Shown in pieces: positions 14,067 through 61,968 of a DNA stretch of 64,000 nt. Position 1 is the first letter of the stretch, and every line of letters starts with the position of its first letter. The stretch spans positions 4,994 to 68,993 of the forward strand of contig CAZETW010000004.1 in NCBI GenBank assembly GCA_964515295.1, given 5' to 3'. Origin of the DNA: an uncultured bacterium. Lineage in GTDB: Bacteria; Zhuqueibacterota; QNDG01; CAYUAG01. Made by a program: the position numbers and the translations under genes. A model generated the notes under the pieces. The model was not told the DNA's origin, did no database searches, and saw only the letters and a program-made list of their open reading frames with translations.

Positions 14067-14073
14067 TGAAACA

Positions 14074-14476
14074 GGGCAGAACAGGTGATCGCGGGGTTGT
14101 GATTTAATAAACTATAACCCTGAGGAAAGTCCGGACTCCACAGGACAGGATGCTCCATGAACAGGAGGCATTCCTCATAAGGAATGACGGAAAGTGCCAC
14201 AGAAAAAAAACCGCTCAATATTACTGTCTCAGTTGTATTGAGTAAGGGTGAAAAGGCGAGGTAAAAGCTCACCGGTTCTGCGGTGACGCAGAACGACATG
14301 GTAAACCCCATCCGGAGCAAGGCCAAATAGATGAGAAAATTTATTACGAAATGGTCCGTTTCGTCTGACTCATGGGTAGGCCGCAGCGAGGATGTCTGCT
14401 AACAGACATCTTCCATAAGATAAATGATCACCATTTCCTCTATGAGGAAAACAGAATCCGGCTTATCGTTCTGCCC
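14074..14476 (+). ncRNA. rnpB: RNase P RNA, bacterial type A (rnpB)
   Basis: Conserved blocks GAGGAAAGTCCGGACTCCACAGG, GAAAGTGCCACAG, GGTAAACCCCATCCGGAGCAAGGCCAAATAG, ACAGAATCCGGCTTA; P1 pairing GGGCAGAAC/GTTCTGCCC at the ends. Confidence 0.88.
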
Positions 14477-14501
14477 CAGTAATTTTGAGGTCTTTAATAA
14501 A

Positions 14502-43725: not shown

Positions 43726-46700
43726 CTATAGAACCTGTTTACGCAGAGTCTGCTGCATTCTTTTAATTCTTTCAAACAGGTCTCTTCTTTCCGGTGTTCG
43801 TTTTAATACTTCATTCCATTGAAAAACAGCCTTTTTATATTCCCCCCTGTTTGCATAAATTACTCCCAGATTTTCAGCAACTGTAAGATTATCAGGCTGT
43901 ACACGACGGACTTTATCATAGTAATATTCTGATTTATCTAAATTACCGATCTTGAAATAAGCATCTCCAAGATAATGCAGGGCATTTAAATTTGTGGGAT
44001 CTTCATTCAGAACTTTTTTAATCGCAATGATAGCTTTTTCATATGATCCCTGTTTATAAAACCATTTTCCGGATTTTAAAAAGCGCTGAATCCTTTTTTC
44101 TCTGATCCTTTTTTCTTCTTCCGGGTTTGGTTTTTTTTCTTCAGGTACTCTTTTTCTTTTTTGGACATCCAGGCCTTCTGACATCTTAAGAAAACTGGTT
44201 TCTTCCTCCTCTTGTTTATCTTTACCATATTCAATGTCTTCATGTTGTTCTTCATCCAGCAATTCATCTGCTGTAAAAGAAGCTATCTCTTCTTCTACAT
44301 CCTGTTCGTCAAAGACATCAGAGTAATATATATCTTTATGATCAAGTGTTTCTTCAATTTCCTCAAGTTCATCAATTTCTTCTTCACTTTCTTGCGGAAT
44401 TTCTTTTACAATATCCTGTTTTTGTTCTTCTTTTTCTTCAAGAGATTCAGCCGGCGCTTCCTCTTCTGATTCAGGAGTGATAATGTCTTCATCTTCAGAA
44501 CTGCCTATAAAATCATTTAAAATATGATCGGTTTTTTCGTGTATTTCACTTTCATGTTCAGAAATAACTTCTTCAGGTTCTTCAGAGATAACCTCTTCGA
44601 AATCTTTTTCTTCTTCTTTGATTACTTTTCTGTCTTCATCCTCAACGTCAACAGACTGCTCAACGATTGTAGGTTTATTAACAATTTTTCCGTCCAAGGT
44701 AACAAAAGGAGTACCTGGTTTCTTTAGAGCTTTGCGTCCGCCTTTTTCAATAAAAGCCAAACGTAATTCTTTGGTATTTAATTTGCTTTTTACTAATTCA
44801 TCGTAAATTCTTTTTTCATCAATTTCTACATTATCATATTTATCACTCTTTAATTCCTCACTAATTCTTTTTGCTCCATAATCAGGATTATTTTTAATAA
44901 TGTCGATAATTTTGGCTCTGTCTTCAATGCTTATATGTTTATCTTCAATTTTTGTAATTTTCCTTCCGTCATATAATCCTTCTTTTCCCTTTTTATTGTA
45001 TTTCTTTCTGTATTTATAATATGTTGAGGTAGAAACATTTTCCCTTTTACATGCTTCTTTAACACTTAATCCTTTTTTATCAACTAATTTCATCAACCGT
45101 AATCTGTGATTAAATAATACATCCTCAGCTTTCAATTTTTCTCTTATAGCCACCAGGGTAATATCATCAGTTTGCGCAAAACCTTCGGAAAAGATGATTA
45201 TTTCATCTCTGATCTTATTTACAAATGGTTCTACATTTAAGTCTCCATATTCTCTTATGACCGAAAGAAACCGTTCATCACCAAAGCGTTCTCTGTTGTG
45301 ATTCATGGCTTCGGTAATACCATCAGTATAGACGATCAGCGAATCTTCGGGTCTTAAATGCAGAGTGTCAGATTCAATTGTTTTATTAAACAGAGAATCA
45401 TCGGGCAGTTTAATTCCTATGGGAAATCCTTTCGGATTCAGGTAGTAACTTTTTTTGGTAGATCCTCTATAGAGAATCATGGGATTATGTCCGGCACTGG
45501 CGTAATTTATAGATCTTTTCTTGGAATCAAGAATTACATAAAATATAGTAACAAACATTCCGCGTTTCATATCTTTCATGACAAAACTGTTTACTTTAGC
45601 CAGTACATCAGCAGCATTTTTATTGCCGCGCGCTTCAGTACGAAGTGCTGTTCGGATCATGGTCATTACCAGGGAACCAGGAACTCCTTTACCTGAAACG
45701 TCTGCAACCACAATACCCAGAGTATCATTATCTACCTCCACAAAATCAAAGTAATCTCCGCCCACTTCTTTTGCTGCTTCATAGTATGTAGATATCTCAT
45801 ATCCTTCAATATCCGGAAAAGAAGCCGGGAGCAGTGTTTGCTGTATATCCTGGGCAACCTGTACTTCTTTTTGCAGTCTTTCCTGTTCTGCTAAATGTTC
45901 CTGAGTTTCACGAAATTTTTCTGTAATATCATTAAAAGCTTGAGCTATTTCGCCCACTTCATCTGAATTATCGAATTCCATCACATCTTCTGCTTCTCCC
46001 CGTCCCAAAGCTTTAACCCAGTGAGATAATTTTTTAAAAGGACTCATAGTAGTATATACAAGTACAAAAACTCCTATGCAGCCGCTTACTAATATAACCA
46101 AAGATCTCCAGAAAATACTTTTTCTCTTTTGTGCAACGTTACCGTCAACAAAGCTTTTATTCAACATGATATGGACTGAGCCTAAAATATACCTGTTATC
46201 ATCAATTTCAAATTCAGCGGGTTTATTTATGTCATATACACTGCCCACACCAGCATAGTCATATACATATAAACTATCAGATTTTTTTCTGTATTTTCGT
46301 GGGAGTGAAAATGGTTTTAACAGGTTCTCCATATTCACTGCACCCTGAATACTGCCAGTGCTGTCTACAATAATTATTTCTGAAACCAGTGGAGTATGAT
46401 TATGCTGTAATTCAGCTGAAATTCTTGCTAATTCCCAGGTTTCTTCATTAGCAAGAAATTCGGCGGAATTCTGCACTACAGTTGAAGCCAGTTTTTGTCC
46501 TTCTTCAAGATAGGTGTTAAATACTTTTTTCCCTTGATAAATATAATTCCAGATCGAGAATATTAGTATTAAAAAGGTTAATATACCAGAGGCAATCAAC
46601 GAATATCGGGTTTTCATGGAAAAGCTCAACTCTGGTATGGAAAATTTTTTGGAAACATCTAATTCACGAATTTTTGTCAGACGTAATTCATTTCCCTCTA

Positions 46701-47082
46701 CTGTTTTTCTATAGTCGATCTCATCAATGACCTTGCGCATTATAAATATTCCCAAACCGCCTTTTTTTCCGATATTCACATATCTGTCAAGGTCAGGATT
46801 TTTTACTTTTCTGGGATCAAAAGTTTTCCCCTGATCAATGAGAGAAACAGTAACATTCTGTTCTCTTATTATCATCCTGACTGTTATAAAACCTTCCCAG
46901 TCACGATAAGCATGACGGATTATATTTGTACCTGCTTCATCTATGGCCATTTTAAAGGCATTGATGATGTTTTCACTGACACCATATTTTCTGCCTACTT
47001 TGGTGATAAAATCACGCATTTCGCCCAGATTTCCAATATCAGCGGGTACTTTTAATTCTTTTTTCTTTACTTTTTTAAACAT
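43726..47082 (-). CDS. Multidomain signalling protein: RsbW-like GHKL serine kinase + 2 TM with extracytoplasmic sensor + HAMP + PP2C (RsbU/SpoIIE) phosphatase + transposase-type HTH + acidic tract + C-terminal TPRs
   Basis: 1118 aa; DEAGTNIIRHAY and GGLGIFIMRKVIDEI (HATPase_c_2); two TM helices; GDYFDF...TDGITEA...DDITLVAIR (PP2C-SIG); LSVKEACKRENVSTSTYYKYRKKY and PDYGAKRISEEL (IS481/IS3 OrfA-like HTH); E/D-rich region; 3 TPRs. Confidence 0.8.
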   Translation of the reverse strand: MFKKVKKKELKVPADIGNLGEMRDFITKVGRKYGVSENIINAFKMAIDEAGTNIIRHAYRDWEGFITVRMIIREQNVTVSLIDQGKTFDPRKVKNPDLDRYVNIGKKGGLGIFIMRKVIDEIDYRKTVEGNELRLTKIRELDVSKKFSIPELSFSMKTRYSLIASGILTFLILIFSIWNYIYQGKKVFNTYLEEGQKLASTVVQNSAEFLANEETWELARISAELQHNHTPLVSEIIIVDSTGSIQGAVNMENLLKPFSLPRKYRKKSDSLYVYDYAGVGSVYDINKPAEFEIDDNRYILGSVHIMLNKSFVDGNVAQKRKSIFWRSLVILVSGCIGVFVLVYTTMSPFKKLSHWVKALGRGEAEDVMEFDNSDEVGEIAQAFNDITEKFRETQEHLAEQERLQKEVQVAQDIQQTLLPASFPDIEGYEISTYYEAAKEVGGDYFDFVEVDNDTLGIVVADVSGKGVPGSLVMTMIRTALRTEARGNKNAADVLAKVNSFVMKDMKRGMFVTIFYVILDSKKRSINYASAGHNPMILYRGSTKKSYYLNPKGFPIGIKLPDDSLFNKTIESDTLHLRPEDSLIVYTDGITEAMNHNRERFGDERFLSVIREYGDLNVEPFVNKIRDEIIIFSEGFAQTDDITLVAIREKLKAEDVLFNHRLRLMKLVDKKGLSVKEACKRENVSTSTYYKYRKKYNKKGKEGLYDGRKITKIEDKHISIEDRAKIIDIIKNNPDYGAKRISEELKSDKYDNVEIDEKRIYDELVKSKLNTKELRLAFIEKGGRKALKKPGTPFVTLDGKIVNKPTIVEQSVDVEDEDRKVIKEEEKDFEEVISEEPEEVISEHESEIHEKTDHILNDFIGSSEDEDIITPESEEEAPAESLEEKEEQKQDIVKEIPQESEEEIDELEEIEETLDHKDIYYSDVFDEQDVEEEIASFTADELLDEEQHEDIEYGKDKQEEEETSFLKMSEGLDVQKRKRVPEEKKPNPEEEKRIREKRIQRFLKSGKWFYKQGSYEKAIIAIKKVLNEDPTNLNALHYLGDAYFKIGNLDKSEYYYDKVRRVQPDNLTVAENLGVIYANRGEYKKAVFQWNEVLKRTPERRDLFERIKRMQQTLRKQVL

Positions 47083-49008: not shown

Positions 49009-52000
49009 CTATTTTACCACAGCAATTTTTGTTTTTACTATATTGTCGTCTGTATCCATAACCAATATATATACACCGTTAAGTACTGTGTTTCCATTAT
49101 CATTGGTGCCGTTCCATTCAACCTGATTACTCCCCCTTGAATGAAGTCCTTTTCTTCCTTCCGGATCAGTACTGCTGAAAGATTCTGACCAGACTAATTC
49201 TCCGATTAAATTATAAATGCTGAAATTTACATTTGTATCCTTGTCTAAATAGTAAACAATGGTTGTAGTTTTTTTACCCGGTGAACCGAATGGATTGGGA
49301 AAATTCAGTAGATATGCTTTATCGTCTGTTCCCACATCTTCACTTGATATCACCTGTTTTTGCCAGTTGCTCTTTAACTCAAATCTATCTCCTGAAGGAG
49401 ATAACACCGGCAGTGAAACATAAGGGACATACTCATCAACAGCTGTAATATAGGTGCTGTCAGGCATTTCCAGCATAAAATTCACTGTCTTTTCTGTTGT
49501 ATGCATGTCTGCAAGGAGAGCGATTTTCAGTGTATCCTGAGTCTTAATCGGGTTCATATGATCAATTAAAATGTTAACCGGATTTTCGGCAGGTATTTGT
49601 GATGAAGACAGTGTAGCCAGACAGCTGTCTTTATTATAATAATATCTTCCATTCTTCTTTATTAATTTGCATAGTTTGATTTTCTTATAAATAGAAGAAG
49701 GATTTAATGGCTGGTGAGAAAAGTCTAGAAGATTAAATTTTATTTTTGTCAGTAATACTCCATTCGCACCTGCTTCACCTCTGTTGATCATTTCAAATCC
49801 TGTTAGCCAGACATTATTTTGCCCGCTTATTACTTGACTTGAAATAGAATCCGGCTGGTCTAATTCTGTAACGGAAAGCCAGGTTCCCACTGTTGTTACC
49901 CCGATATCTGCACTTACTTTACTTGCATATGCTTCTTCAGATGTATTCTGATCCCAGGGAATTTTTGAAATATAAGCTGAGATAGTGGCAGTTTCGCCTG
50001 TGGAGTAGGGAGGTGCTTTAATCATCCAGTTTGTTTTTTCCTGTGTCGCATAATGAACCGGAGATTCTTTTGTTGTATATCCTTCAGGTAATTGTTCCAG
50101 AGTAATCATAGCAGTACCAAGAGTATCAGCTTCTCCTTTGTTTTCTATCTCTGCATACAGGATAAATTCCTGAGAGGGAGAAACAGATTTGTCATCAATG
50201 TTAAGGTTCAATGCCAGATCAGCTTTTTTTACAGTTTGTATCTCAATACCTTTCTGTTCTGCAGATATTATTACATCCTCTTGCTGAAGTGCATCGTAGC
50301 CGGATGCATTTACATAAATAGTTCTTTTATCTGTTGCTCCTTTGGGCGCTCTGATTTGCCAGGTTACTTCATTTGATATCACTTTTTTATCCAGGTTATC
50401 CGAGGTGGTATATCCGGTTGGCAATGTTATGGAGGCAGTGATATCCCTTACATAATTCCAGGTCAGACTTGCTCTTACTACAAAATACTGATCGGATGAT
50501 ACTTTTTGATTAACTGCTCCGGGCGGTGAGGCTATACCCAATGAACTGGTAAGAAAACTTTTATGAGTTATTACAGATATTTTTTCTGTCTTTTTTTCAA
50601 TTTTTGCAACTTGTCCGGTGTTTCTGGCTAAAGGAGGTTTATACAGAGTAACATTTATTGTTTGCCAGTCTGTGGCAATATTGGGCGATTTGATTTCCCA
50701 GGTTGCAGGTGAATTAAGAGTAATGGAATTATTAACTGATCCGCTGAGTGTATAGGGAGAAGGAAGAGTTATTCTTATTTTTCCGGTAGTATCAATAGCA
50801 CCAGATCCATGATTTTCCAGATGTGCGGTGAGGATAAAAACCTGGTTGGTTGTAAATTCTCCTATGGGATTGCTTAATTTCAGTTTTATTGAGAGGTCTG
50901 CCGGTTTCTGAATATAAGCAAAAGCTACAGGATCTAAAGCCGGACCAACAGGTACCTCTGAATCATCCTTTTTGGCACTTGTTATAGAAGCAGTAAATTG
51001 TTCTCCGGAAATATTTTCCACTGCTGATGCGGTAAGGTAAAATATTACAGAATCTCTTTGGGATGGTGACAGAGAAAGTATGGTTAAATCTGAATTTTCT
51101 ATATTTGATATTTCGCTTTCCAAATGAACATTAATATTCTTGACTGCATGACCTAATCCGTTTTCTACTGATACAATAACTTTAAATTCCTGGTTTGTAT
51201 CCAAATACGCATTGCCTCCCTCGGTTGTATTATAAGCATCGATCACAGTTGATACAATTCTAAAGGCCGGATTGGACTGCACTGATATTAAGGCTGATGC
51301 ATTATTCTGTTTTATGTTTCCGGTGTTTTTTTCAACTCCCTGGATATTGGTTTTAACTTCTACCTCTCCGCCGTATAGTCCGGTTAGTTTAACTTTGTAT
51401 ACTAATGTATCCCTTGTTCCGCTTTTCAGGCTGATATTTTTGGTGGTACATTCTGTAATATAATCTGTGAGTTTTAGATCTTCATGCCAGAAACTGATAT
51501 TTGATTTCAGGGTATCTATCTGAATTTCTGCATAATAATCTATAGGGGCCTGACTTTGCCCGTTAGCAAGTACAACTTTAACAAACCAGGGTTCAGTCTG
51601 ACCTCCCATTACTTTATTTGTGGAAGTGATAATTTTTTCAATGGACAGAGTTCCTGGCTGTTGTACATGTACTTTGGTTGTGTCATCAACAGGATTTTTA
51701 CTTGTCAGAGAATCATTCTTATTATCAGTCCATCCGCCGCCGCTTACTGTAAAGATTTCATTGTACAGATAGGTTTGAAAGGCATTACCTGTTACTGTGA
51801 TAACAGAAGTTTCACCGCCCTCAAGAGGATCAACAGGGATACGGGTAGGGAAATTAAACCAGGGATGTTCTGAAGTTAAATGTAATCCGATGTCATGTAA
51901 TCCATCTCCGCCTGTATTGGCTATTTTAATGTTCATGTCAAATTCCTGATTGATATTAACATAGGGTGCATTGGGAGCCATATTTGTAAGTTCGAGAATT

Positions 52001-55000
52001 TTTAATTCCGCTTCTTCTTCAATAATTACTGTTCCCCATCCTGCATTATCAGTGTTGTCAGAAACCTGTAATTCTGTATTTATTTCAGTACCTGAAACAG
52101 AGGCGTTTATTTTACATTCTCCAGTGCTGTTTTCTCCTGTATGAATAACCTGATAGTTCAGACTGTCGATAGTTTCACCTTCAAGAATCCATCCTCCTTT
52201 AGCAAGAGAATCCGGTCGTATTACTGCCCAATTATCTCCAATACTGAAAGAAAGAGAAGTGTTTACAGCAGCCGAAACAGAATCAATCAACACACTGCTT
52301 TCACCCCGGTTACTCAGTACTACTGCTATTGACCAGTTTGTGTCCTGAGCAACTGTTACTTCATTCTGGGAGGTGATGATTTCATTGACAATCAAATCAG
52401 CCGGCGTCTGTACATTAACTGAAGTCCAGGCTTGATCAGTTAATTGTTCACCAGCGATAGTGGAAGTATATAAAAATCCCTGTATGAGTGCTGAGCCTTT
52501 ATCCGCACCGGTACTGTCTATGGTTACAACTAATGTATCTGTAGAATAACCGGATAATATTTTTGTACCACTATTCTTAAATGTATCAGGAATTGATATT
52601 TGATAATCATTTTTCAGTATCCCGTCAGTTTTTATATTTAACCCGATACTGTCAAGAGTAACATTGTTGCTGCTCAGGTTTTCCACAGTCATAATAAGGA
52701 ACCAGTCTTTGTTTTGATTTGCAGTTATATGCTGTACAAGAGTAGAGTAATCATTTTTTACCGGTTTAAAATCCAAAATTCTCAGCCCCGGTGCATTTAT
52801 AACATTAAAACTATTAGAAACTCCACTGGGTGCAGGTTCCTCTGCACCTGTTTCTGTAACTGTAATAACATTACCTGAGTATTGGGTGTTCACTGTAACG
52901 CTTCCATTCCATATACCGTTAACAAAATTCGAACTTTTTTGCGGTTGTATAGTAGCGGAAGAATCAGTGATATCAACAGTACCGGTAAAATTGGATTTGA
53001 CATTATCATTTTCATCATAGGTAGTGATATTTAACGGAAACGGCTGACCTGTTACCTGAGTATTGATCAAGCCTATTTCAAAATAAGACACTTGTCCGGG
53101 AATAACTATAATGGAACCGGTATGAGCTGATATATCAGTTTGTGGTTTATGTGTCTTTATATTGCCGCTTCCCGGTTTACTGGGGATATAGGTGATGTCA
53201 GATTTATTTGAGATGTTAACTGCAGGAGTTAATCCCTGGGAACTCCAATCTACAATTTCAGTTCCTCTGAAGTTTCCATAGCCGTCATATCCTACAGAAT
53301 AAAGATCCAGACTTTCTCCTACACTTAAGGTGTCGTTAATTATTTCTTCTCCTTCATGAATAGGAACATTTTTTATCTTAAGCTGAGACAGAGTTCCTGG
53401 ATTTACTAAAATATCACTCACAACAGAAGAAATATCGTTTACCTGGCCTTTCAGCGCAACTCCGCTTTCTGCTTTTACTAATATCTGATTAGCCTGCCCT
53501 GAACCGTTTATCACCTGAATATCATTGAAAATCGGAGACGACCCATTGGGAGAATTCCCTCCCAGATTATTACAGGTTACAGTAACCATACCTGACCAAT
53601 TATTCTGATATTTATCCTGTGCATCAGTTAGTGTTAAGGGAAATGGTATTCCTGCCGTTTGAATTGAGCCGCAATTCAAGGCAAATGTGTCTATGGAAGC
53701 ATACGTGACCGTAATACTGCTGCTGGTCTTACTTATTTCTCCATCAGTAACAGTTACGGTTTGTTGGGGGGAATTATATAAAATAAAAGATGAACCGAAG
53801 AATACTTTTTGTCCGTTATTCCATCCGGTTCCGTTATCAACCGGCAGTGTTGCCGGATATGGTTCTTTATCTGAAGAACTCCAGATAATAATTCCTTCAT
53901 AATCGGTTTTTTTATTTTTATAGCTGTCAAATGCAGTTACCGTAACCCCGTAGGAGAAAGGCTGTCCGGCACGCCTGGTTTCAGGTAATCCTTCTATAGT
54001 AAAATCACCAAGTTCGCCAGGGAGGACCAGGATTGAATGACTGGTTCTGCTTACTGTCCCGTCAATTACTTTGATTGTCTGGGAGGGTGCATTAAATAAA
54101 AGAAAAGAAGAACCACTAAACGTTTTGCTTCCATTTACCCAGCCTGTTCTGTCATCTGTAGGTAATGCTGCAGGGTAAGGAGTGCCGTCAGAAGAATTCC
54201 AGATAACAATTCCGGAATAATTAGTTTTTAAATTATTATATTCATCAAAAGCAGAGACGGTAACATTACTATTGAATTGCTGACCTGCAATAGTACTGGA
54301 TGGAACTCCGCTTAACTCAAATCTGTCAAGATCTGTTGCATATACAGTAATCGGATCTGATGTTTCGATGACGCTCCCGTCCTGAACTGTAACAGTTTGT
54401 TCAGTGGTATTGTAGAGTTTAAATGAAGTTCCCGGAAAAGTCTTTTTTCCCCCACTCCATCCGGTTCCGTCATCTTCCGGAAGATCAGCAGGATATGGAA
54501 TACCGTCACTGGATACCCAGTCCACTGTACCCTGGTAGTCATTTTTGACATTTCCATAAAAATCATAAGCAGTAATTTCAATATCATTGTTAAAAACAGA
54601 ACCTGCTTCAACGCTGCCGGGGATTCCGCTTATCTTAAAACTATCAAGCGCTGCCGGTTCAACTGTTACATTATATGTAGTACTGGTTATAGAGCCATCT
54701 GATACAGAAAGCCATTGAGTACCTGCTGTACATAATTTGAATAGGGCACCACTGAATTTTTTTGATCCGTTATTCCATTCACTGCCGTCATCAGTGGGAA
54801 GTAAGACTTTTTCGTTAGTATCAGATGTATGCCAGGTGACAGTACCGTTATATGTATCTTCAATTTGCCCGTATTGATTATAGGCAGTCACTTCAATACT
54901 GTCAGGGAACTGCTGGCCTGCTTGAACAGTAGCTGGTACATTTGTTAGCTCCAATCTGGCTAAAGTCCCGGCATTTGTTTCAGGTGCTTTTAAAGGGTGA

Positions 55001-55098
55001 TTAACTTGTGCCCCCAACGTTTTATTGACATAAAAATTAAGTGTCACCCCCGAAAGGAATACTGCGGTCAAAAAGATTTTTTTCAAGGATATATTCAT
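49009..55098 (-). CDS. Giant secreted repeat protein with T9SS (Por) C-terminal sorting domain
   Basis: 2029 aa; signal peptide; at least 4.5 tandem ~105-aa repeats near N-terminus; C-terminal ~90 aa NFPNPFGSPG...IYNLIGELV...GVYILVM...KIAVVK matches T9SS CTD. Confidence 0.85.
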   Translation of the reverse strand: MNISLKKIFLTAVFLSGVTLNFYVNKTLGAQVNHPLKAPETNAGTLARLELTNVPATVQAGQQFPDSIEVTAYNQYGQIEDTYNGTVTWHTSDTNEKVLLPTDDGSEWNNGSKKFSGALFKLCTAGTQWLSVSDGSITSTTYNVTVEPAALDSFKISGIPGSVEAGSVFNNDIEITAYDFYGNVKNDYQGTVDWVSSDGIPYPADLPEDDGTGWSGGKKTFPGTSFKLYNTTEQTVTVQDGSVIETSDPITVYATDLDRFELSGVPSSTIAGQQFNSNVTVSAFDEYNNLKTNYSGIVIWNSSDGTPYPAALPTDDRTGWVNGSKTFSGSSFLLFNAPSQTIKVIDGTVSRTSHSILVLPGELGDFTIEGLPETRRAGQPFSYGVTVTAFDSYKNKKTDYEGIIIWSSSDKEPYPATLPVDNGTGWNNGQKVFFGSSFILYNSPQQTVTVTDGEISKTSSSITVTYASIDTFALNCGSIQTAGIPFPLTLTDAQDKYQNNWSGMVTVTCNNLGGNSPNGSSPIFNDIQVINGSGQANQILVKAESGVALKGQVNDISSVVSDILVNPGTLSQLKIKNVPIHEGEEIINDTLSVGESLDLYSVGYDGYGNFRGTEIVDWSSQGLTPAVNISNKSDITYIPSKPGSGNIKTHKPQTDISAHTGSIIVIPGQVSYFEIGLINTQVTGQPFPLNITTYDENDNVKSNFTGTVDITDSSATIQPQKSSNFVNGIWNGSVTVNTQYSGNVITVTETGAEEPAPSGVSNSFNVINAPGLRILDFKPVKNDYSTLVQHITANQNKDWFLIMTVENLSSNNVTLDSIGLNIKTDGILKNDYQISIPDTFKNSGTKILSGYSTDTLVVTIDSTGADKGSALIQGFLYTSTIAGEQLTDQAWTSVNVQTPADLIVNEIITSQNEVTVAQDTNWSIAVVLSNRGESSVLIDSVSAAVNTSLSFSIGDNWAVIRPDSLAKGGWILEGETIDSLNYQVIHTGENSTGECKINASVSGTEINTELQVSDNTDNAGWGTVIIEEEAELKILELTNMAPNAPYVNINQEFDMNIKIANTGGDGLHDIGLHLTSEHPWFNFPTRIPVDPLEGGETSVITVTGNAFQTYLYNEIFTVSGGGWTDNKNDSLTSKNPVDDTTKVHVQQPGTLSIEKIITSTNKVMGGQTEPWFVKVVLANGQSQAPIDYYAEIQIDTLKSNISFWHEDLKLTDYITECTTKNISLKSGTRDTLVYKVKLTGLYGGEVEVKTNIQGVEKNTGNIKQNNASALISVQSNPAFRIVSTVIDAYNTTEGGNAYLDTNQEFKVIVSVENGLGHAVKNINVHLESEISNIENSDLTILSLSPSQRDSVIFYLTASAVENISGEQFTASITSAKKDDSEVPVGPALDPVAFAYIQKPADLSIKLKLSNPIGEFTTNQVFILTAHLENHGSGAIDTTGKIRITLPSPYTLSGSVNNSITLNSPATWEIKSPNIATDWQTINVTLYKPPLARNTGQVAKIEKKTEKISVITHKSFLTSSLGIASPPGAVNQKVSSDQYFVVRASLTWNYVRDITASITLPTGYTTSDNLDKKVISNEVTWQIRAPKGATDKRTIYVNASGYDALQQEDVIISAEQKGIEIQTVKKADLALNLNIDDKSVSPSQEFILYAEIENKGEADTLGTAMITLEQLPEGYTTKESPVHYATQEKTNWMIKAPPYSTGETATISAYISKIPWDQNTSEEAYASKVSADIGVTTVGTWLSVTELDQPDSISSQVISGQNNVWLTGFEMINRGEAGANGVLLTKIKFNLLDFSHQPLNPSSIYKKIKLCKLIKKNGRYYYNKDSCLATLSSSQIPAENPVNILIDHMNPIKTQDTLKIALLADMHTTEKTVNFMLEMPDSTYITAVDEYVPYVSLPVLSPSGDRFELKSNWQKQVISSEDVGTDDKAYLLNFPNPFGSPGKKTTTIVYYLDKDTNVNFSIYNLIGELVWSESFSSTDPEGRKGLHSRGSNQVEWNGTNDNGNTVLNGVYILVMDTDDNIVKTKIAVVK
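53570..54966 (-). repeat. Tandem ~310-bp coding repeats (~105-aa units) inside the giant T9SS cargo gene
   Basis: Protein-level repeats LxxFxIxGxPxxxxAGQxF...VTAxDxYGNxKxxYxGxVxWxSSD...LPxDxGTGWxxGxKxFxGxSFxLxNxxxQTVTVxDG...TSxxITV observed four to five times. Confidence 0.7.
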
Positions 55099-57499: not shown

Positions 57500-58777
57500 T
57501 TAAGATCTTAAGGTTAAATCTATCACAAACTTAATAGTTTCACCTTTGAAGTCTTTAACATTTACAGGGGTAATAATCATTTTGTCTACACTATATTTAC
57601 CACTGTTTCTCAATAATATGGTTAGATATGTTATTAAGTTATTACTATTCCCTTCAACATTAATACGTACCGGAATGGTAGTTTCACCGGATTGTGTATT
57701 TGCTGGAAAGGTCTTACTATCTTTAAATACTAAAGAATTATTTTGTGCTGTTCTTTGCAACCATTGTTGTAATAATTGAGCTGAATTAAAATTTTTAGCT
57801 GAAACGGGCTGACTTATTACCGAACCAGGTAATTCTCCGGAAATTACTCCCCAGTATCGCATCTCTCCATTAGTCCTAAAGCCATCTTCCGGAGATGTCT
57901 CATATTTTCCGGTATTGAAAATTGTTTTAATTTTCTCTGCCATTTCACCAGAAACATTAGGCTGTAATGAGGCATATCCGGCTCTGAAGTATTTATCTTT
58001 AATATCGATAATGATAGTACCAAGACAGTTGTTCTGAGAAAAATAGTTGATCAGAGAACCTGTGTTTTTTGCTAATTCAGTAGTTTGTATTGCTGTGCCA
58101 GGAGCACTTACTTTTTCTGTTGTTTCACCTGGTTTGACGGGTTGTTTTTCTGAATCAGGAGCAGTTACTCCGGTACTGGATGTAGTGTCTTTTTTCCCTG
58201 CAGCTAATTGCTTACGTTGCTGTTCAATCAATTCCTCAATATCAGGTTTTTCCGGAATATTATTTTGTATATCCCTGAGAGCTTCAACTTTTGGTTTATA
58301 CACAAATTGATATCCCAGCGCAACTATCACTACAATCCCCAATAGTATTAACAGAAATGGAGAGACACCTTTTTTCTTTACTTCACCATAGGTATAATCT
58401 TCATCTTTACTATCTTTAGCAGGTCCTTCCAAGTCAGGAATTTCTTCTTCGTTGTCTAACTCGTCATCTAAAAATTCTTCATCATCTAAAGAAGATACAT
58501 CGTCCAATTCACTGTCAATATCTTTATCAATATCAGATCCGGTGTCTTCGTCTAATCCGTCTTCAAATTCATCGTCTAAATCCAAATCCATATTTTGATT
58601 TTTATTGAAATCTCCACCAAGTTTTTCCTCATCGTTAAAACTTAATTTCTCATCAAAATCACCACCTAAATCCTCTTTGTCTTCTTGAGAATCATCCCTT
58701 GCATTTTTTTCTTTTTTTCCTTTTTCCTCTTCCTTTTCCTCTTCATCATCATCTTTAAAAAGATTAATGTCTACCAT
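57500..58777 (-). CDS. PilN-like inner-membrane protein with long acidic cytoplasmic insertion
   Basis: 425 aa; N-terminal MVDINLF resembles the PilN INLLP PilM-binding motif; ~130-aa D/E-rich tract; single TM; ~270-aa periplasmic domain. Confidence 0.45.
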   Translation of the reverse strand: MVDINLFKDDDEEEKEEEKGKKEKNARDDSQEDKEDLGGDFDEKLSFNDEEKLGGDFNKNQNMDLDLDDEFEDGLDEDTGSDIDKDIDSELDDVSSLDDEEFLDDELDNEEEIPDLEGPAKDSKDEDYTYGEVKKKGVSPFLLILLGIVVIVALGYQFVYKPKVEALRDIQNNIPEKPDIEELIEQQRKQLAAGKKDTTSSTGVTAPDSEKQPVKPGETTEKVSAPGTAIQTTELAKNTGSLINYFSQNNCLGTIIIDIKDKYFRAGYASLQPNVSGEMAEKIKTIFNTGKYETSPEDGFRTNGEMRYWGVISGELPGSVISQPVSAKNFNSAQLLQQWLQRTAQNNSLVFKDSKTFPANTQSGETTIPVRINVEGNSNNLITYLTILLRNSGKYSVDKMIITPVNVKDFKGETIKFVIDLTLRS

Positions 58778-58837: not shown

Positions 58838-59788
58838 TTATTTGAATTGTTTTAATGCTACCCCGATAGATGATGTAAATTTTTCAGGATTTTCTCTGAA
58901 TTTTTCATTATTTGAAATTGATTGTGAAATTGCAATTTTAGAAAATGGATTCAGTATTTCAATGGGCACTTGTATATTTTTAGTCAGTTGATTCTGGAAA
59001 TCATAAATTAAATCACGTCCGGTTAAATAAATTTTTTCAAAATCTTCAATTTTATTGACTATTTTATGACCAAAAATTAATCTTTTTAATTCTTTTAATA
59101 ATAAATCGCTTATTTCTGAAACACTTACTATGGTTGAATTATCTTTATTTTTTAATGAAATATTATATGATAAATAGAATTCTTCATCCTTAATAAAAAT
59201 AATACAAATATATTCTCTTTGTAAATCAATTAAAATATTGATCCCTTCACTTAGTTGGTAATTTTCAACTAATGAGCGGATATTTGAAAAAACATCAACG
59301 TCTATATCCTTTAAAATCATGCCGGTCTTATGTATGAGTTTTCTGATCATAGACAAAAATTTTTTTCTAAGTAAGACAACAACATATAAAGGATTACCAG
59401 AAAATGTCTGGAACGGCAACCGCTGATAATCAACAATATAGTCATCTAAAGAAGAAATAACAAACTGTTGTGATTCCCAATAGAGTTGCTGTTGTATAAA
59501 ATTTTTATCAAGACCAAGGGCAATAGGGATTCGTTTGATCAAAACACAACCGCTATATATTGAAACACCTACTTCTTTACCAGCTCCTAAATCTTTATAC
59601 AGATCTTTTAAAATAACACTCTGCGTGTCCAGAAAATTATTTTGAGACATCATTGTTTCCATATCAAAAGATTGTAATAGATGTTTGGAAACAAGATTCT
59701 GGACACTCTTATTTTTCATCAAAACAAGGCACATTTGATCTGGGTATATAGATAACCCAATATAAGGATTTTCAGAGTGCTTTTTCAC
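58838..59788 (-). CDS. PilM-like actin-fold protein (type IV pilus/competence assembly)
   Basis: 316 aa; N-terminal IGLSIYPDQMCLVLM and C-terminal NPF...SSIGVALKQF resemble PilM termini. Confidence 0.5.
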   Translation of the reverse strand: MKKHSENPYIGLSIYPDQMCLVLMKNKSVQNLVSKHLLQSFDMETMMSQNNFLDTQSVILKDLYKDLGAGKEVGVSIYSGCVLIKRIPIALGLDKNFIQQQLYWESQQFVISSLDDYIVDYQRLPFQTFSGNPLYVVVLLRKKFLSMIRKLIHKTGMILKDIDVDVFSNIRSLVENYQLSEGINILIDLQREYICIIFIKDEEFYLSYNISLKNKDNSTIVSVSEISDLLLKELKRLIFGHKIVNKIEDFEKIYLTGRDLIYDFQNQLTKNIQVPIEILNPFSKIAISQSISNNEKFRENPEKFTSSIGVALKQFK

Positions 59789-59809: not shown

Positions 59810-61558
59810 CTATTCGTCCCAACTTTTTGAGCCAACATCTGCTTTACCGTGATTTCTTATTTTACGTCCACCGAATACTTTTTCTATAAAAGGAACAGTA
59901 ATTTTTTTATATGTGGTGTCGTTATTTACCGGATCAATAATCATAATTTTTTTAACTTCTTCAGTGTCGACTATGGGACATTTGATCTCGAATTCCGGTG
60001 GAGAAACAGTATCATTATAGCTTACTAAATATTTTTCTTTAGCTACAGGGCAAATATCGACTGATTTTAACAGAGTTCCACTGAATAAAGGAACAATCCC
60101 TAAATCGTATAATATGGAATTTGTTTTTGATTCAGTATTAACTATGATATTCCACAGCTCTTTGTTATTAGGAAGATCAAGGTTATTTACAATTTCAGCA
60201 GTTTTGTCTTTTCCTAATATTTTCATCCATTTAACAGAGGCATCAAGTTTTTTCAGAGCAGTATTTTTCTGCTCTAATTTTTCTTTTTCTTTTTCCCACA
60301 ATACATCTTGTTCCTGTCTCCACATCAGATCTTTAATTTCATACCAAAATTCTTCTTCATTCTTTTCTTGTTCAGTAATCCATTCCTGATAGGCTTCATC
60401 TTCCCAGGTTAATCTTCTGTCACTGAGAAACAGATCCTTTTTAACATCCTGAACATAATTTTTATTATGATCCAACCATTTCTCATATTCTTTTTCTTTC
60501 AGGCTGTCGACAATGGTGTTCCAAAGAGAATCTTTCTGGGCTTCAAAAGTTTCCTGTAAAGAATCCGGAACAGTTGCAAGTTTGTTCTCCAGCCATTCTT
60601 TTTTTCTTTCCAATGTCCACCTTTTGTCCAGAATTCTCTTCCACACTTCAGAATTTTCTTCTAACCATTGTTGACCTTCTTTTTTCCAGAGTTTATCGCG
60701 GACTTCTTTCCATTTTAATTCTTTCCTGTTACTCCACAATACCCTTTTTTGCTCATCAATAATGGAATCTTTTTTTGCCTGGGAGAGTGTGTCAAGCTTT
60801 TCTGACCATTGAGGTCTCTTAACTGTTTCCCAGGTATCACGATCTCTACCTTCTTCCCCGCCCCAGATATCTTTGCTTAATGCAAAGTTTACAGAATTTG
60901 CCAGTTCTTCATAAAAATATGGTCTATAGTGATCCCAATAGCGTGTATCTTCCAGATCTGTGTTTCTTCTGAATTCCCGTACGGTATATCTTCGCATATA
61001 GGTTGAGGTAGCCTGATCTTCAAGGATATCCTGTACGTTTTTTCTGGGTAATAAAGTGTTCCATGCCACTGCATTATCAATCACTTCTTTACTTTTTACA
61101 GAATCAGGGCTGGTTATATATTGTTTTAAGCCTTCAACAAGTTTATATCGTAATGAATCCCAATGAGAAAGATTTGATACCGGCTCTCCATTTTCTAACT
61201 TCGTTAATATCAGATTACTCAGGTCCTCCGGAAGATTTTTCTGCATTACAAGAGTTTTCAGTTTATCTTTTTGTATCACTTTATCCCAATATAATACAGA
61301 ATCCAATCTTGCCAGAGCAGTACTATCTTCCACAACATTATTAATTAATTTGGGGATGCTGTCAGAATAAGTACGATAATTATTATAATACTGATATTGG
61401 TAATTCTGAAGTGCATCCATGCGCGCCCTGCATATCTGCTGTAAATTTTCCTGCTTTTCCCAAATATTTTTTGGATAAAGAATTGCCCAAAGAAGAACGA
61501 TTATTAATACTACAATGATCACTTCTAAAATAAAACTCCCCTTTGAATTTTTAATCAT
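59810..61558 (-). CDS. Prepilin-like protein with tryptophan-periodic K/E-rich repeats
   Basis: 582 aa; class III signal MIKNSKG|SFILEVIIVVLIIVLL with Glu at +5; body contains ~10-residue-period W repeats (WEKQE..., LWSNRKELKWKEVRDKLWKKEGQQWLEENSEVWKRILDKRW...). Confidence 0.55.
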   Translation of the reverse strand: MIKNSKGSFILEVIIVVLIIVLLWAILYPKNIWEKQENLQQICRARMDALQNYQYQYYNNYRTYSDSIPKLINNVVEDSTALARLDSVLYWDKVIQKDKLKTLVMQKNLPEDLSNLILTKLENGEPVSNLSHWDSLRYKLVEGLKQYITSPDSVKSKEVIDNAVAWNTLLPRKNVQDILEDQATSTYMRRYTVREFRRNTDLEDTRYWDHYRPYFYEELANSVNFALSKDIWGGEEGRDRDTWETVKRPQWSEKLDTLSQAKKDSIIDEQKRVLWSNRKELKWKEVRDKLWKKEGQQWLEENSEVWKRILDKRWTLERKKEWLENKLATVPDSLQETFEAQKDSLWNTIVDSLKEKEYEKWLDHNKNYVQDVKKDLFLSDRRLTWEDEAYQEWITEQEKNEEEFWYEIKDLMWRQEQDVLWEKEKEKLEQKNTALKKLDASVKWMKILGKDKTAEIVNNLDLPNNKELWNIIVNTESKTNSILYDLGIVPLFSGTLLKSVDICPVAKEKYLVSYNDTVSPPEFEIKCPIVDTEEVKKIMIIDPVNNDTTYKKITVPFIEKVFGGRKIRNHGKADVGSKSWDE

Positions 61559-61968
61559 CTGTTTTCCTCCATAGTTATATTTGTGTTAATTAGATTTATT
61601 TTTAAAAAAGGTTTTAATTGTTCAATTGTTTTCTCCCCAATTCCTTTAACATTTTTCAGTTCATTTATGGAAGTAAAATATCCTTTTGTTTTTCTGTATT
61701 GTACAATTCTTTCTGCTTTTACAGGACCAATTCCTGGTAATGTTTTAAAATCATCCAGGTTTGCTTTATTTATGTTAACACATGTAACTTGATTATCTTT
61801 TTCTGTGACTGTTTCATCATTAACGGTGACATCATTATTCATTACCAGGGATGGAGTTTCCGGTAATGATTTCCATTTAATTTGAAAAATACGGATACAC
61901 AGTCCAGCTAAAAAAGTTAATAGCAGGAATATGATAAATTTACTTTCTTTAGGAGTAAAACCCAGCAT
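61555..61968 (-). CDS. comEA: ComEA family DNA-binding protein (helix-hairpin-helix)
   Basis: 137 aa; N-terminal TM; INKANLDDFKTLPGIGPVKAERIV and LKNVKGIGEKTIEQL HhH motifs. Confidence 0.85.
   Translation of the reverse strand: MLGFTPKESKFIIFLLLTFLAGLCIRIFQIKWKSLPETPSLVMNNDVTVNDETVTEKDNQVTCVNINKANLDDFKTLPGIGPVKAERIVQYRKTKGYFTSINELKNVKGIGEKTIEQLKPFLKINLINTNITMEENR

What the first reader, a model, noticed from the sequence alone, without database searches (positions are those of the whole stretch)
59810..61558. 582-aa prepilin-like protein with periodic tryptophan repeats
The N-terminus (MIKNSKG|SFILEVIIVV..., Glu at +5 after the putative cleavage site) looks like a type IV pilin or pseudopilin signal, but the mature part is far larger than ordinary pilins. 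It is dominated by K/E/R-rich segments in which Trp recurs about every 9-11 residues (for example LWSNRKELKWKEVRDKLWKKEGQQWLEENSEVWKRILDKRWTLERKKEWLENKL, and again WEDEAYQEWITEQEKNEEEFWYEIKDLMWRQEQDVLWEKEKEKL). A Trp-periodic charged repeat on a pilin anchor is not a family I recognise. It could be a nucleic-acid or polysaccharide binding surface, and it sits next to ComEA.
Basis: seen in the sequence. Interest (0 to 1): 0.65.

Follow-up and report, generated by a model that had tools for sequence, protein, structure and literature searches.

The report
Giant pilin with tryptophan-ladder insert
This gene encodes a real, conserved type IV pilin-like protein from an uncultured bacterium; its small pilin core is split by a roughly 410-residue helical insert with a tryptophan every eight residues, a design that matches no described family or solved structure.

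Summary
The 582-aa ORF (59810-61558, minus strand) is real and conserved. About 34 full-length 50%-identity clusters (581-692 aa) exist, all from uncultured bacteria whose nearest named relatives are KSB1 and Calditrichota.

**Trp repeat.** It is highly non-random, but the period is 8 (x6-L-W octads), not 9-11. Every Trp is at least 83% conserved at 31-40% overall identity.

**Pilin reading: supported.**
- The leader ends K-G, with Glu at +5 and Pro at +22, followed by a 53-residue α1 helix.
- The best PDB and NCBIfam sequence matches are pilins and GspG, aligned in register.

**Architecture.** The Trp-rich part lies inside a ~410-residue all-α insertion in the pilin's αβ-loop. It has no Pfam match and no solved structural analogue.

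**Locus.** Orthologs of 124-582 aa with variable inserts occupy the same conserved slot, comEA–X–pilM–pilN/O-like.

The insert is net neutral to acidic, and the tryptophans are probably the hydrophobic core.

**Most likely function.** A modular pseudopilin of a type IV filament or competence-like machine. Cleavage, polymerisation and ligand are untested.

Rating: new variant of a known kind (modular pilins).

The parts
59810..61558 (-). Whole ORF 'X', 582 aa plus stop: a modular type IV pilin-like protein.
   Evidence: An identical protein, P0001, is present in NCBI/Logan on a 73-kb contig. There are 20 homologs at 31-84% identity and about 34 complete Trp-rich clusters of 581-692 aa.
61538..61558 (-). 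Residues 1-7, MIKNSKG: a short basic leader ending in Gly, the predicted prepilin-peptidase site after G7.
   Evidence: K/R at -2 in 76 of 85 complete superfamily members selected for Gly at -1; leader usually 7-8 residues. It aligns with the KG|FTLIE of geopilin and PilA.
61376..61537 (-). Residues 8-61: pilin α1 helix. It comprises a hydrophobic α1N with Glu+5 (E12) and Pro+22 (P29), interfacial W33, and invariant C43-R44.
   Evidence: AF2 helix 9-61, 53 residues. Pro+22 in 85/85; Glu+5 in 32/34 of the subfamily. GspG profile match to residues 7-59, E 0.0011.
61322..61375 (-). Residues 62-79: conserved Y-[ST]-D-[ST]-[IL]-P-x-L helix, the last element of the N-terminal half of the pilin module.
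   Evidence: Conserved in short and long orthologs (A3, A4). AF2 helix 68-77.
60791..61321 (-). Residues 80-256: first part of the insert, with short helices. It contains two tandem ~75-aa 'LDSxxxW' modules (about 85-149 and 160-224), each with two conserved Trp 42 residues apart.
   Evidence: hhalign 85-149 vs 160-224, probability 96.6%. W91, W133, W166 and W208 are 94-100% conserved. pLDDT is mostly 88-95.
60224..60790 (-). Residues 257-445: Leu-Trp octad region (x6-L-W). It has 15 Trp in the target (17 in the consensus), spread over five long helices: 260-301, 303-329, 332-364, 366-397 and 401-441.
   Evidence: Internal repeats: 275-325 matches 338-388 (94.5%), and 260-312 matches 398-450 (82%). 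The region is 44% charged with net charge -5.
60077..60223 (-). Residues 446-494: end of the insert. It includes the third 'LDxSVxW…LP' module (about 433-463) and the linker helices back to the pilin core.
   Evidence: hhalign 433-463 vs 80-110, probability 88%. AF2 helices 444-458, 465-474 and 482-486.
59891..60076 (-). Residues 495-556: C-terminal half of the pilin module, a four-stranded antiparallel sheet bracketed by the two invariant Cys-Pro motifs (C503, C527), probably a disulfide.
   Evidence: AF2 strands 511-515, 522-526, 537-541 and 548-552. C503 and C527 are present together or absent together in the superfamily. Aligns with the β-domain of 124-300-aa orthologs.
59813..59890 (-). 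Residues 557-582: conserved tail F-G-G-x-x-I-x-N-H-G … [KR]-S-W-[ED], very near the C-terminus.
   Evidence: H570 in 79/85, S579 in 78/85; W580 was the selection criterion for the set and is invariant in A1 and A4. pLDDT is low here, 34-56.
61555..61968 (-). ComEA: N-terminal membrane anchor plus helix-hairpin-helix DNA-binding domain. It is translationally coupled to X through an ATGA overlap.
   Evidence: HHH_3 E 4.2e-23; TIGR00426 above cut-off. Overlap and GGAGG.
58838..59788 (-). PilM-like actin-fold ATPase-like protein, 316 aa, 21 nt downstream of X.
   Evidence: PF11104 PilM_2, 47.6 bits (cut-off 27), E 1.5e-12; TIGR01175 E 2.7e-13.
57500..58777 (-). PilN/PilO/GspM-like bitopic protein, 425 aa. 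It has an invariant N-terminal MVDINL[FI]xDD (a PilN-type PilM-binding motif), a ~135-aa polyacidic linker, a TM segment, and a GspM/PilO-like periplasmic domain.
   Evidence: T2SSM_b 22.1 bits (cut-off 21.7); GspM_XpsM E 7e-5. The N-terminal motif is invariant in 4 orthologs.

Best explanation
X is a modular type IV pilin-like protein (a pseudopilin).

Shown:
- Residues 1-79 and about 495-582 together form a small pilin module. It has a short basic leader ending in Gly, Glu+5, Pro+22, a 53-residue α1 helix, a four-stranded sheet with a probable Cys503-Cys527 disulfide, and a conserved NHG…SW tail.
- About 410 residues are inserted in the αβ-loop, the loop between α1 and the sheet.
- The insert is all-α and is built from two internally repeated units: three ~75-aa 'LDSxxxW' modules, and about 17 Leu-Trp octads on five long helices.
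- X is the enlarged ortholog of a 120-180-aa pilin that occupies the same conserved slot, comEA–X–pilM–pilN/O-like–rsmD–coaD, in Kryptonia and in other uncultured bacteria related to KSB1/Calditrichota.

Inferred:
- X is inserted in the inner membrane N-in, cleaved after Gly7 by a prepilin peptidase encoded elsewhere, and then docked through α1 into a short type IV-filament or T2SS-like (pseudo)pilus built on the PilM–PilN/O platform.
- Because of its bulk it is probably present in one or few copies, at the tip or base, and is not the repeating subunit.
- The Leu-Trp pairs are the hydrophobic core (a 'tryptophan ladder') of a rigid, highly charged helical domain. That domain would act as a presented module or spacer in the periplasm or at the surface.
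- Coupling to ComEA makes DNA uptake the most likely process, but the insert does not look like a classical basic DNA-binding surface.
For: Pilin module:
- Leader, Glu+5, Pro+22 and α1 length.
- The best PDB sequence matches are geopilin and PilA, in exact register.
- GspG, ComGC and PilA profiles are the only recurring NCBIfam hits across the family, down to E 1e-9 for minimal members.

Insert position: alignment A4.

Orthology and machine context: the same slot next to PilM_2 and GspM-like genes in the loci. The PilN-type MVDINL motif is on the downstream protein.

Repeats and Trp statistics.

Trp as core:
- Only 28% of positions in 257-445 are conserved-hydrophobic, and a third of these are Trp.
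- The Trp are at least 89% conserved.
- The region is as conserved as the pilin core, 0.40 against 0.40-0.45.
- pLDDT exceeds 90.

Precedent for bulky pilins being tip-located: ComZ (PMC6561018); PilB, CofB and GspK (10.1101/2021.01.27.428410).
Against: - The +1 residue is Ser or Asn, not Phe or Met. The GFxxxE cleavage/methylation models (TIGR02532, PF07963) do not match the target at E ≤ 1.
- In the wider superfamily the +5 residue is Lys in 28 of 85 members. This is hard to reconcile with canonical filament packing.
- No prepilin peptidase, assembly ATPase, platform protein PilC or secretin lies in the 64-kb window or in any of the fetched loci.
- All pilin HMM hits are below the curated cut-offs.
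- Burial of the tryptophans is inferred from composition, not read from coordinates, which the tools do not expose.
- One locus (L009) lacks ComEA next to X.
Confidence: 0.6

Rival explanations
1. X has a pilin fold but never polymerises. It would be a bitopic inner-membrane protein, cleaved or not, that forms part of the PilM–PilN/O alignment platform. In effect it would replace the missing second PilN/PilO-type partner, and its helical insert would reach across the periplasm as a scaffold or ruler.
For: - Only one PilN/O-like gene accompanies PilM, whereas PilN and PilO are separate partners in classical T4aP (established knowledge).
- In Kryptonia the locus has X and PilM but no PilN/O gene at all.
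- X is always immediately upstream of PilM.
- Lys at +5 in 28/85 and Ser/Asn at +1 are atypical for assembling pilins.
- There is no GFxxxE model match.
- W33 sits just after the TM segment, as in ordinary signal anchors.
Against: - Gly-1, K/R-2 and Pro+22 are conserved as in processed pilins.
- The PilN-type PilM-binding motif is on the downstream protein, not on X.
- In the target's subfamily Glu+5 is kept in 32/34 members.
Confidence: 0.22
2. X is a DNA-receptor pilin, functionally like Thermus ComZ or Neisseria ComP. The Trp/Lys/Arg-rich helical insert, possibly through HMG-box-like three-helix units, would bind incoming DNA and hand it to ComEA.
For: - comEA is directly upstream in most loci and is translationally coupled here.
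- Conserved basic clusters exist, such as K319-K320, R381-R382 and K436-K437.
- ComZ sets a precedent for a large competence pilin (PMC6561018).
Against: - The insert is net acidic or neutral: domain I -4, octad region -5, family range -16 to +11, mature pI 5.5.
- Conserved acidic positions number 26 against 17 conserved basic.
- There is no Pfam HMG_box hit at E ≤ 1.
- Short orthologs lack the insert entirely but keep the ComEA linkage, so the insert is not needed for whatever links X to ComEA.
- One lineage lacks the ComEA adjacency.
Confidence: 0.15
3. The tryptophans are surface-exposed and form a spiral aromatic ladder with about 12 Å rise per Trp. This ladder would bind a periodic polymer, such as polysaccharide or peptidoglycan glycan strands, making X a tip adhesin or a cell-wall anchor.
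For: - Regular aromatic spacing is typical of carbohydrate-binding surfaces (general knowledge).
- The hydrophobic positions wind all the way round each long helix and do not form one stripe.
- The host encodes a T9SS-type giant surface protein and PorV-like genes, suggesting a polymer-degrading lifestyle.
Against: - If Trp were exposed, only about 18% of the region would be left as conserved hydrophobic core. That is too little for a confidently folded five-helix domain with pLDDT above 90.
- Each Trp is preceded by a conserved Leu or Val, as expected for core positions.
- There are no CBM or lectin hits.
Confidence: 0.08
4. The ORF or its Trp pattern is a chance or compositional artefact, such as a spurious ORF or a low-complexity K/E-rich region.
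For: AT-rich genome (about 33% GC locally) and K/E-rich composition.
Against: - Full-length homologs down to 31% identity keep invariant Trp, Cys and Pro positions.
- Synteny is conserved.
- The AF2 model is confident.
- Statistics.
Confidence: 0.01

Closest known systems
Modular type IV pilins (S. sanguinis PilB/PilC, ETEC CofB; Raynaud et al., 10.1101/2021.01.27.428410)
   Same: A small pilin module with a class III-type N-terminus carries a bulky extra module. Their size argues for a tip location. Many such modules are not in domain databases.
   Different: In those proteins the module is grafted after the pilin module through a linker. Here about 410 residues are inserted inside it, in the αβ-loop. 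The module is a novel Trp-octad helical repeat and not a vWA, lectin or β-domain. The pilin module itself is a divergent family with KG[SN]xxxE and a NHG…SW tail, which the GFxxxE models do not detect.
ComZ of Thermus thermophilus (PMC6561018)
   Same: A large competence-associated pilin in which a big domain is incorporated into the pilin framework. It is proposed to be a tip-located DNA receptor. X is likewise linked to a competence gene (comEA).
GspK, the tip pseudopilin of type II secretion, with GspG, GspL and GspM
   Same: GspK has an α-helical domain inserted in a pilin fold. The best profile hits of X are to GspG. The downstream partner hits GspM (T2SSM_b), and PilM corresponds to the cytoplasmic domain of GspL (established knowledge).
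   Different: The GspK α-domain is inserted in the β-sheet and GspK lacks Glu+5 (10.1101/2021.01.27.428410; own knowledge). X keeps Glu+5, its insert is in the αβ-loop and is about four times larger. No GspK model hit for X. No GspD/E/F nearby.
Small type IV pilins and pseudopilins (Thermus PilA4 6xxd, Shewanella pilin 4d40, EpsG 4lw9, PilE 4noa)
   Different: Only 9-16% identity. Ser/Asn is found at +1 in place of Phe. There are extra invariant residues: Cys43, His570 and a C-terminal Ser-Trp.
Akkermansia Amuc_1098-1102 'pili-like' cluster (PMC5332112)
   Same: Non-canonical envelope proteins with N-terminal signal sequences are encoded next to a PilM/FtsA-like gene. The PilM-like protein here weakly hits the Amuc_1101 family model (E 1.6e-11, far below cut-off).
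Flagellin (an analogy of evolutionary pattern only)
   Same: Conserved N- and C-terminal parts form the structural core, and a central insert varies from almost nothing to hundreds of residues between lineages. Here family members range from 120 to 744 aa.
   Different: Unrelated fold and machinery. Whether X polymerises at all is unknown.

Membership tests
Type IV pilins / pseudopilins (class III signal peptide proteins) | Short, positively charged leader ending in Gly at -1 | tested here: met
   MIKNSKG; K/R at -2 in 76 of 85 complete superfamily members selected for Gly at -1; leader mostly 7-8 residues.
Type IV pilins / pseudopilins (class III signal peptide proteins) | Glu at +5 of the mature protein | tested here: met
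   E12 in the target; Glu in 32/34 and Gln in 2/34 of the Trp-rich subfamily. In the wider superfamily it is Glu in 53, Lys in 28, Gln in 3 and Arg in 1 of 85.
Type IV pilins / pseudopilins (class III signal peptide proteins) | Canonical G|F/M-T-L-I-E cleavage/N-methylation motif detectable by TIGR02532 / PF07963 | tested here: not met
   +1 is Ser (Ser or Asn in 76/85). No N_methyl or IV_pilin_GFxxxE hit for the target at E ≤ 1. Only the minimal member P0137 reaches E 0.14.
Type IV pilins / pseudopilins (class III signal peptide proteins) | About 20 hydrophobic residues followed by a long (~53-residue) α1 helix with Pro22 | tested here: met
   AF2 helix 9-61 in the target and 10-62 in the 146-aa ortholog. 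Pro at +22 in 85/85.
Type IV pilins / pseudopilins (class III signal peptide proteins) | α/β-roll fold: α1 packed on an antiparallel β-sheet | tested here: met
   [not shown]
Type IV pilins / pseudopilins (class III signal peptide proteins) | C-terminal stabilising disulfide (D-region) or a metal site | tested here: inconclusive
   C503 and C527 co-occur (both present in about 46, both absent in about 34 of 85), as expected for a disulfide. Distances could not be read from the model.
Type IV pilins / pseudopilins (class III signal peptide proteins) | Cleavage and N-methylation by a prepilin peptidase (PilD/GspO) | not testable with these tools
   No peptidase gene in the window or fetched loci. 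Whole genomes could not be searched.
Type IV pilins / pseudopilins (class III signal peptide proteins) | Polymerisation into a filament by a PilB/PilC-type motor | not testable with these tools
   Only PilM and a PilN/O/GspM-like gene are adjacent. No PilB, PilC, PilQ or PilT within 64 kb.
Modular pilins (pilin module plus non-pilin module) | N-terminal pilin module plus an additional structured module not specific to pilus biology | tested here: met
   About 410 extra residues fold as a confident all-α domain. The module is absent from 120-180-aa orthologs.
Modular pilins (pilin module plus non-pilin module) | Module appended to the C-terminus of a complete pilin module via a linker | tested here: not met
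   The module is inserted between residues ~80 and ~495, inside the pilin module.
GspK-type tip pseudopilin | α-domain inserted in the β-sheet, and absence of Glu+5 | tested here: not met
   The insert is in the αβ-loop. Glu+5 is present. No T2SS_GspK hit for the target.
DNA-receptor pilins (ComP, ComZ) | Electropositive DNA-binding surface, or demonstrated DNA binding | tested here: inconclusive
   Net charge of the insert is -4/-5, with 26 conserved acidic against 17 conserved basic positions. The surface electrostatics of the model could not be computed, and binding was not tested.
PilN / PilO / GspM alignment-complex proteins | N-terminal INLLP-type PilM-binding peptide and a periplasmic ferredoxin-like domain | tested here: not met
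   [not shown]
HMG-box DNA-binding domain | L-shaped three-helix fold, basic character, Pfam HMG_box signature | tested here: inconclusive
   [not shown]

The most novel reading that the evidence does not exclude
X and its orthologs (120-744 aa) may be the single, principal filament subunit of an undescribed branch of type IV-filament machines (ComEA–X–PilM–PilN/O) in Kryptonia, KSB1/Calditrichota-like and related uncultured bacteria.

As in flagellin, the conserved N- and C-terminal parts would build the filament core. The αβ-loop, which faces outward in pilus filaments, would carry a lineage-specific outer domain. In this lineage that domain is a new fold: a helical bundle whose core is a ladder of Leu-Trp pairs with a 4.0-residue hydrophobic period. 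Such a thick, sheathed (pseudo)pilus could not pass a classical secretin, so the envelope architecture for DNA uptake or surface display would have to be different.
Probability: 0.12. Interest if true: 0.8.

Novelty: new variant of a known kind. Interest (0 to 1): 0.55.

Why it matters
**An undescribed pilin family.** The work defines a divergent pilin family (KG[SN]xxxE … CR … CP…CP … NHG…SW) that current Pfam and NCBIfam pilin models miss. It marks a conserved comEA–pilin–pilM–pilN/O locus in several uncultured lineages, with Kryptonia the only named one. Annotation pipelines call all of these proteins 'hypothetical'.

**A new route to pilin diversification.** The αβ-loop of a pilin can accept inserts from 0 to more than 500 residues. 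This differs from the C-terminal grafting described for modular pilins.

**A link to competence.** If the connection to ComEA is functional, the locus offers a handle on natural competence in phyla where nothing is known about DNA uptake.

Tried and rejected
- **Domain libraries.** Pfam and NCBIfam scans of the target and of 20 family members gave no hit above a curated cut-off, only sub-threshold GspG, PilA and ComGC.
- **Foldseek.** The full model against PDB found nothing (best E 0.6). The afdb50 library was unavailable.
- **The search for related loci.** It failed with the alignment because no stretch was conserved enough. With the single protein it gave only two 'MAG: bacterium' loci.
- **Cys3-His zinc-site idea** (C43, C503, C527, H570). 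I dropped it because C503/C527 covary as one pair, and C43/H570 stay present without them in 23 of 85 members. A disulfide plus a separate C43–H570 contact fits better. This remains untested.
- **X as the PilN-type partner of PilM.** I rejected this because the invariant MVDINL motif is on the downstream protein and no PilN/O fold appears.
- **Canonical coiled coil for the Trp region.** I rejected this because the hydrophobic period is 3.95-4.0, not 3.5, and the hydrophobic positions wind round each helix.
- **Basic DNA-binding surface.** Charge counts do not support it.
- **Literature searches.** Searches on Trp-rich pilins, Kryptonia pili and Bacteroidota competence pseudopili found no description of this family.
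- **Taxonomy.** The SecA search placed the organism only as 'bacterium', with KSB1 and Calditrichaeota as the nearest named groups.
- **Other type IV pilus genes.** None was found in the 64-kb window.
Full report
**Observation**

It starts MIKNSKG|SFILEVIIVV. Its ATG overlaps the TGA of the upstream comEA gene in an ATGA, and a GGAGG lies 8-12 nt upstream.

It has 26 Trp (4.5%), against 0.80% in the 41 other ORFs of the window (P = 4e-12).

The spacing is not 9-11. In residues 257-445 the Trp-Trp gaps are 8,8,7,8,8,8,24,15,24,8,12,8,8,23. Eight gaps of exactly 8 were never reached in 100,000 random placements. Written in rows of eight, the family consensus is x6-L-W, with only two hydrophobic positions per octad. 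Hydrophobicity periodicity peaks at 3.95 and about 8.

**The protein is real and conserved**

- A word-indexed search found 20 homologs of 538-630 aa, mostly 580-630 aa, at 31-84% identity.
- An exhaustive profile search of 1.84 billion representatives found 196 hits, about 20 of them full-length clusters of 581-692 aa.
- In an 18-sequence alignment, 18 Trp are invariant and 4 more are at least 90% conserved, together with C43, C503-P504, C527-P528-I529, H570-G571 and P29. Of the 26 Trp of the target, all but W24 are at least 83% conserved.
- The octad region is as conserved between distant clades (0.40 identity) as the N- and C-terminal parts (0.45 and 0.40).
- All members are annotated 'hypothetical' and come from MAGs labelled only 'bacterium'.
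- SecA of the same contig places the organism nearest to candidate division KSB1 and Calditrichaeota among named groups.
- LptF/G genes, a giant protein with a T9SS-type C-terminal domain, and a weak sub-threshold PorV-like match show a diderm of the FCB type.

**A wider family with a variable middle**

More than 100 further hits of the profile search match only residues ~3-90 and the C-terminal tail. These proteins are 120-744 aa long and share a common signature:

- M-x(3-10)-[KR]-G-[SN]-x3-[EK], followed by a hydrophobic stretch ending in Pro;
- C-R;
- Y-[ST]-D-[ST];
- C-P … C-P;
- N-H-G;
- [KR]-S-W-[ED] within a few residues of the C-terminus.

Only the target's subfamily is Trp-rich (3.9-5.1% against 0.3-2.6%).

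Aligning the target with members of 124-298 aa shows that residues 1-79 and ~495-582 are the shared core, and that ~410 residues are inserted between them.

These proteins are orthologs, not paralogs. Members of 124, 146, 177, 266, 298, 581, 582 and 615 aa all sit in the same slot: hrcA–grpE–dnaJ–comEA–X–pilM–(pilN/O-like)–rsmD–coaD–pta. A 500-aa member has one extra gene between comEA and X. A 563-aa member with a different, Trp-poor insert keeps X, a 313-aa protein, a 360-aa protein, rsmD and coaD, but not comEA.

**What the core is**

In 85 complete members selected for Gly at -1 and the C-terminal Trp, K/R is at -2 in 76, Pro is at +22 in 85, and +5 is Glu in 53, Lys in 28, Gln in 3 and Arg in 1. 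In the Trp-rich subfamily Glu+5 is found in 32 of 34.

The PDB sequence search puts geopilin and two PilA pilins on top, aligned in register from the KG| site to residue ~64. These matches are weak (E 0.034-0.45) but consistent.

NCBIfam gives GspG (E 0.0011), ComGC and Myxococcus PilA for the target. It gives the same families down to E 1e-9 for minimal members. None reaches a curated cut-off.

The AF2 model of the target (pLDDT 84.3, pTM 0.67) has these elements:

- a 53-residue helix, 9-61;
- a helical region;
- five long helices: 260-301, 303-329, 332-364, 366-397 and 401-441;
- a four-stranded sheet, 511-552.

The core is therefore a pilin fold, and the insert sits in the αβ-loop. C503 and C527 appear and disappear together across the family, as a disulfide would.

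**What the insert is**

Profile-profile self-comparison shows two kinds of internal repeat:

- A ~75-aa 'LDSxxxW … LP' module. Residues 85-149 match 160-224 at 96.6% probability, and a third copy at 433-463 matches 80-110 at 88%.
- The octad helices. Residues 275-325 match 338-388 at 94.5%, and 260-312 match 398-450 at 82%.

Some homologs carry one extra ~37-aa unit.

The octad region is 44% charged, with net charge -5 (family range -16 to +11). The mature protein has pI 5.5. Conserved acidic positions (26) outnumber conserved basic ones (17).

Only 52 of 189 positions are conserved-hydrophobic, and 17 of these are Trp and 18 Leu. My inference is that the Leu-Trp pairs are the core of the domain and not a ligand-binding surface.

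The 4.0-residue hydrophobic period, with hydrophobic positions winding round each helix, is not that of a canonical coiled coil.

**Neighbours**

- The 316-aa downstream protein is PilM (PF11104, 47.6 bits against a cut-off of 27).
- The next protein, of 425 aa, has an N-terminal MVDINL[FI]xDD that is invariant in four orthologs. This is the PilN-type motif that binds PilM (established knowledge). It is followed by a ~135-aa polyacidic stretch, a TM segment and a GspM/PilO-like domain.
- No prepilin peptidase, assembly ATPase, PilC or secretin is present in the 64-kb window or in the fetched loci.
- No minus-strand terminator-like site lies between 55000 and 64000, and the genes overlap or are closely spaced. 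The block grpE–dnaJ–comEA–X–pilM–pilN/O–rsmD–coaD–pta is therefore probably one operon. This is inference.

**Interpretation**

The best-supported reading is a modular type IV pilin-like protein of a type IV-filament or T2SS-like machine. It would be anchored and assembled through α1, and it carries a rigid, charged helical domain with a tryptophan-ladder core.

By analogy with ComZ (PMC6561018) and with PilB, CofB and GspK (10.1101/2021.01.27.428410), its bulk suggests one or few copies at a filament tip or base. The conserved, here translationally coupled, comEA makes DNA uptake the most likely process.

The following remain inferred: cleavage after Gly7, polymerisation, location, and any ligand.

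Points against a canonical pilin are Ser/Asn at +1, the lack of a GFxxxE model hit, and Lys at +5 in a third of the wider family. These keep alive the rival that X is a non-polymerising, membrane-anchored part of the PilM–PilN/O platform. The Kryptonia locus, which has X and PilM but no PilN/O gene, points the same way.

**Novelty**

Modular pilins are known and widespread. What is new here:

- the pilin family itself, which is not captured by existing models;
- the insertion site, the αβ-loop, with inserts from 0 to more than 500 residues at an orthologous locus;
- the Leu-Trp octad domain, which has no sequence or solved structural relative.

I rate it a new variant of a known kind, of moderate to good interest.

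Noticed in passing
window 57500-58777 (-): The PilN/O/GspM-like protein has an invariant N-terminal MVDINL[FI]xDD, then a ~135-residue polyacidic (D/E-rich) cytoplasmic stretch before its TM segment. This is far longer than the ~20-residue N-terminus of classical PilN. The length of the stretch varies between orthologs (290-425 aa proteins).
   Followed up: partly
window 61555-61558 and 61562-61571 (-): The comEA stop and the X start overlap in an ATGA, with a GGAGG Shine-Dalgarno inside the end of comEA. dnaJ and comEA also abut (61968). This suggests translational coupling of a heat-shock operon with competence and pilus-like genes.
   Followed up: partly
superfamily alignment; target residues C43, H570, 568-580: Cys43 on α1 and His570 in the tail are lost together in several members (P0099, P0103, P0113, P0142, P0111), independently of the C503/C527 pair. 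In many homologs the tail reads N-H-G-x-I-D-x-D-G-K-x-S-W, which resembles a DxDxDG-type calcium loop, as in GspG pseudopilins. A possible metal site joining the tail to α1 was not tested.
   Followed up: partly
superfamily, +5 position: Outside the Trp-rich subfamily, Lys replaces the otherwise near-universal pilin Glu at +5 in 28 of 51 complete members. I know of no assembling pilin with Lys5.
   Followed up: no
L007 8001-9320 (Candidatus Thermokryptus/Kryptonia contig): In Kryptonia the locus is comEA–X(146 aa)–pilM–rsmD, with no PilN/O-like gene. PilM there has no obvious membrane partner at the locus other than X.
   Followed up: no
[not shown]
   Followed up: partly
alignment A1 columns 328-364 (P0016-P0019): Four homologs carry an extra ~37-residue unit (…LPDSLxxSFxxxxDSLW…W…) next to the equivalent unit of the target. 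This shows recent gain or loss of repeat units.
   Followed up: no
window 49009-55098 (-): A 2029-aa protein with many Ig-like repeats and a T9SS-type C-terminal sorting domain (the ortholog hits FlgD_ig in L003). It is conserved downstream of the same block in related loci, after a TPR protein.
   Followed up: no
window 43726-47082 (-): A 1118-aa fusion of HATPase_c_2 (anti-sigma kinase-like), HAMP, SpoIIE phosphatase, HTH and TPR domains. This is an unusual all-in-one partner-switching-type regulator.
   Followed up: no
window 14073-14481 (+) and 14424-16193 (+): RNase P RNA (259 bits) overlaps the first 58 nt of the mechanically listed RecJ ORF. The real RecJ start is probably further downstream, since its DHH domain starts at residue 104.
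   Followed up: no
window 38611-39873 (+): A 420-aa ORF, directly after a 606-aa TPR protein, has no Pfam match at E ≤ 1e-5.
   Followed up: no
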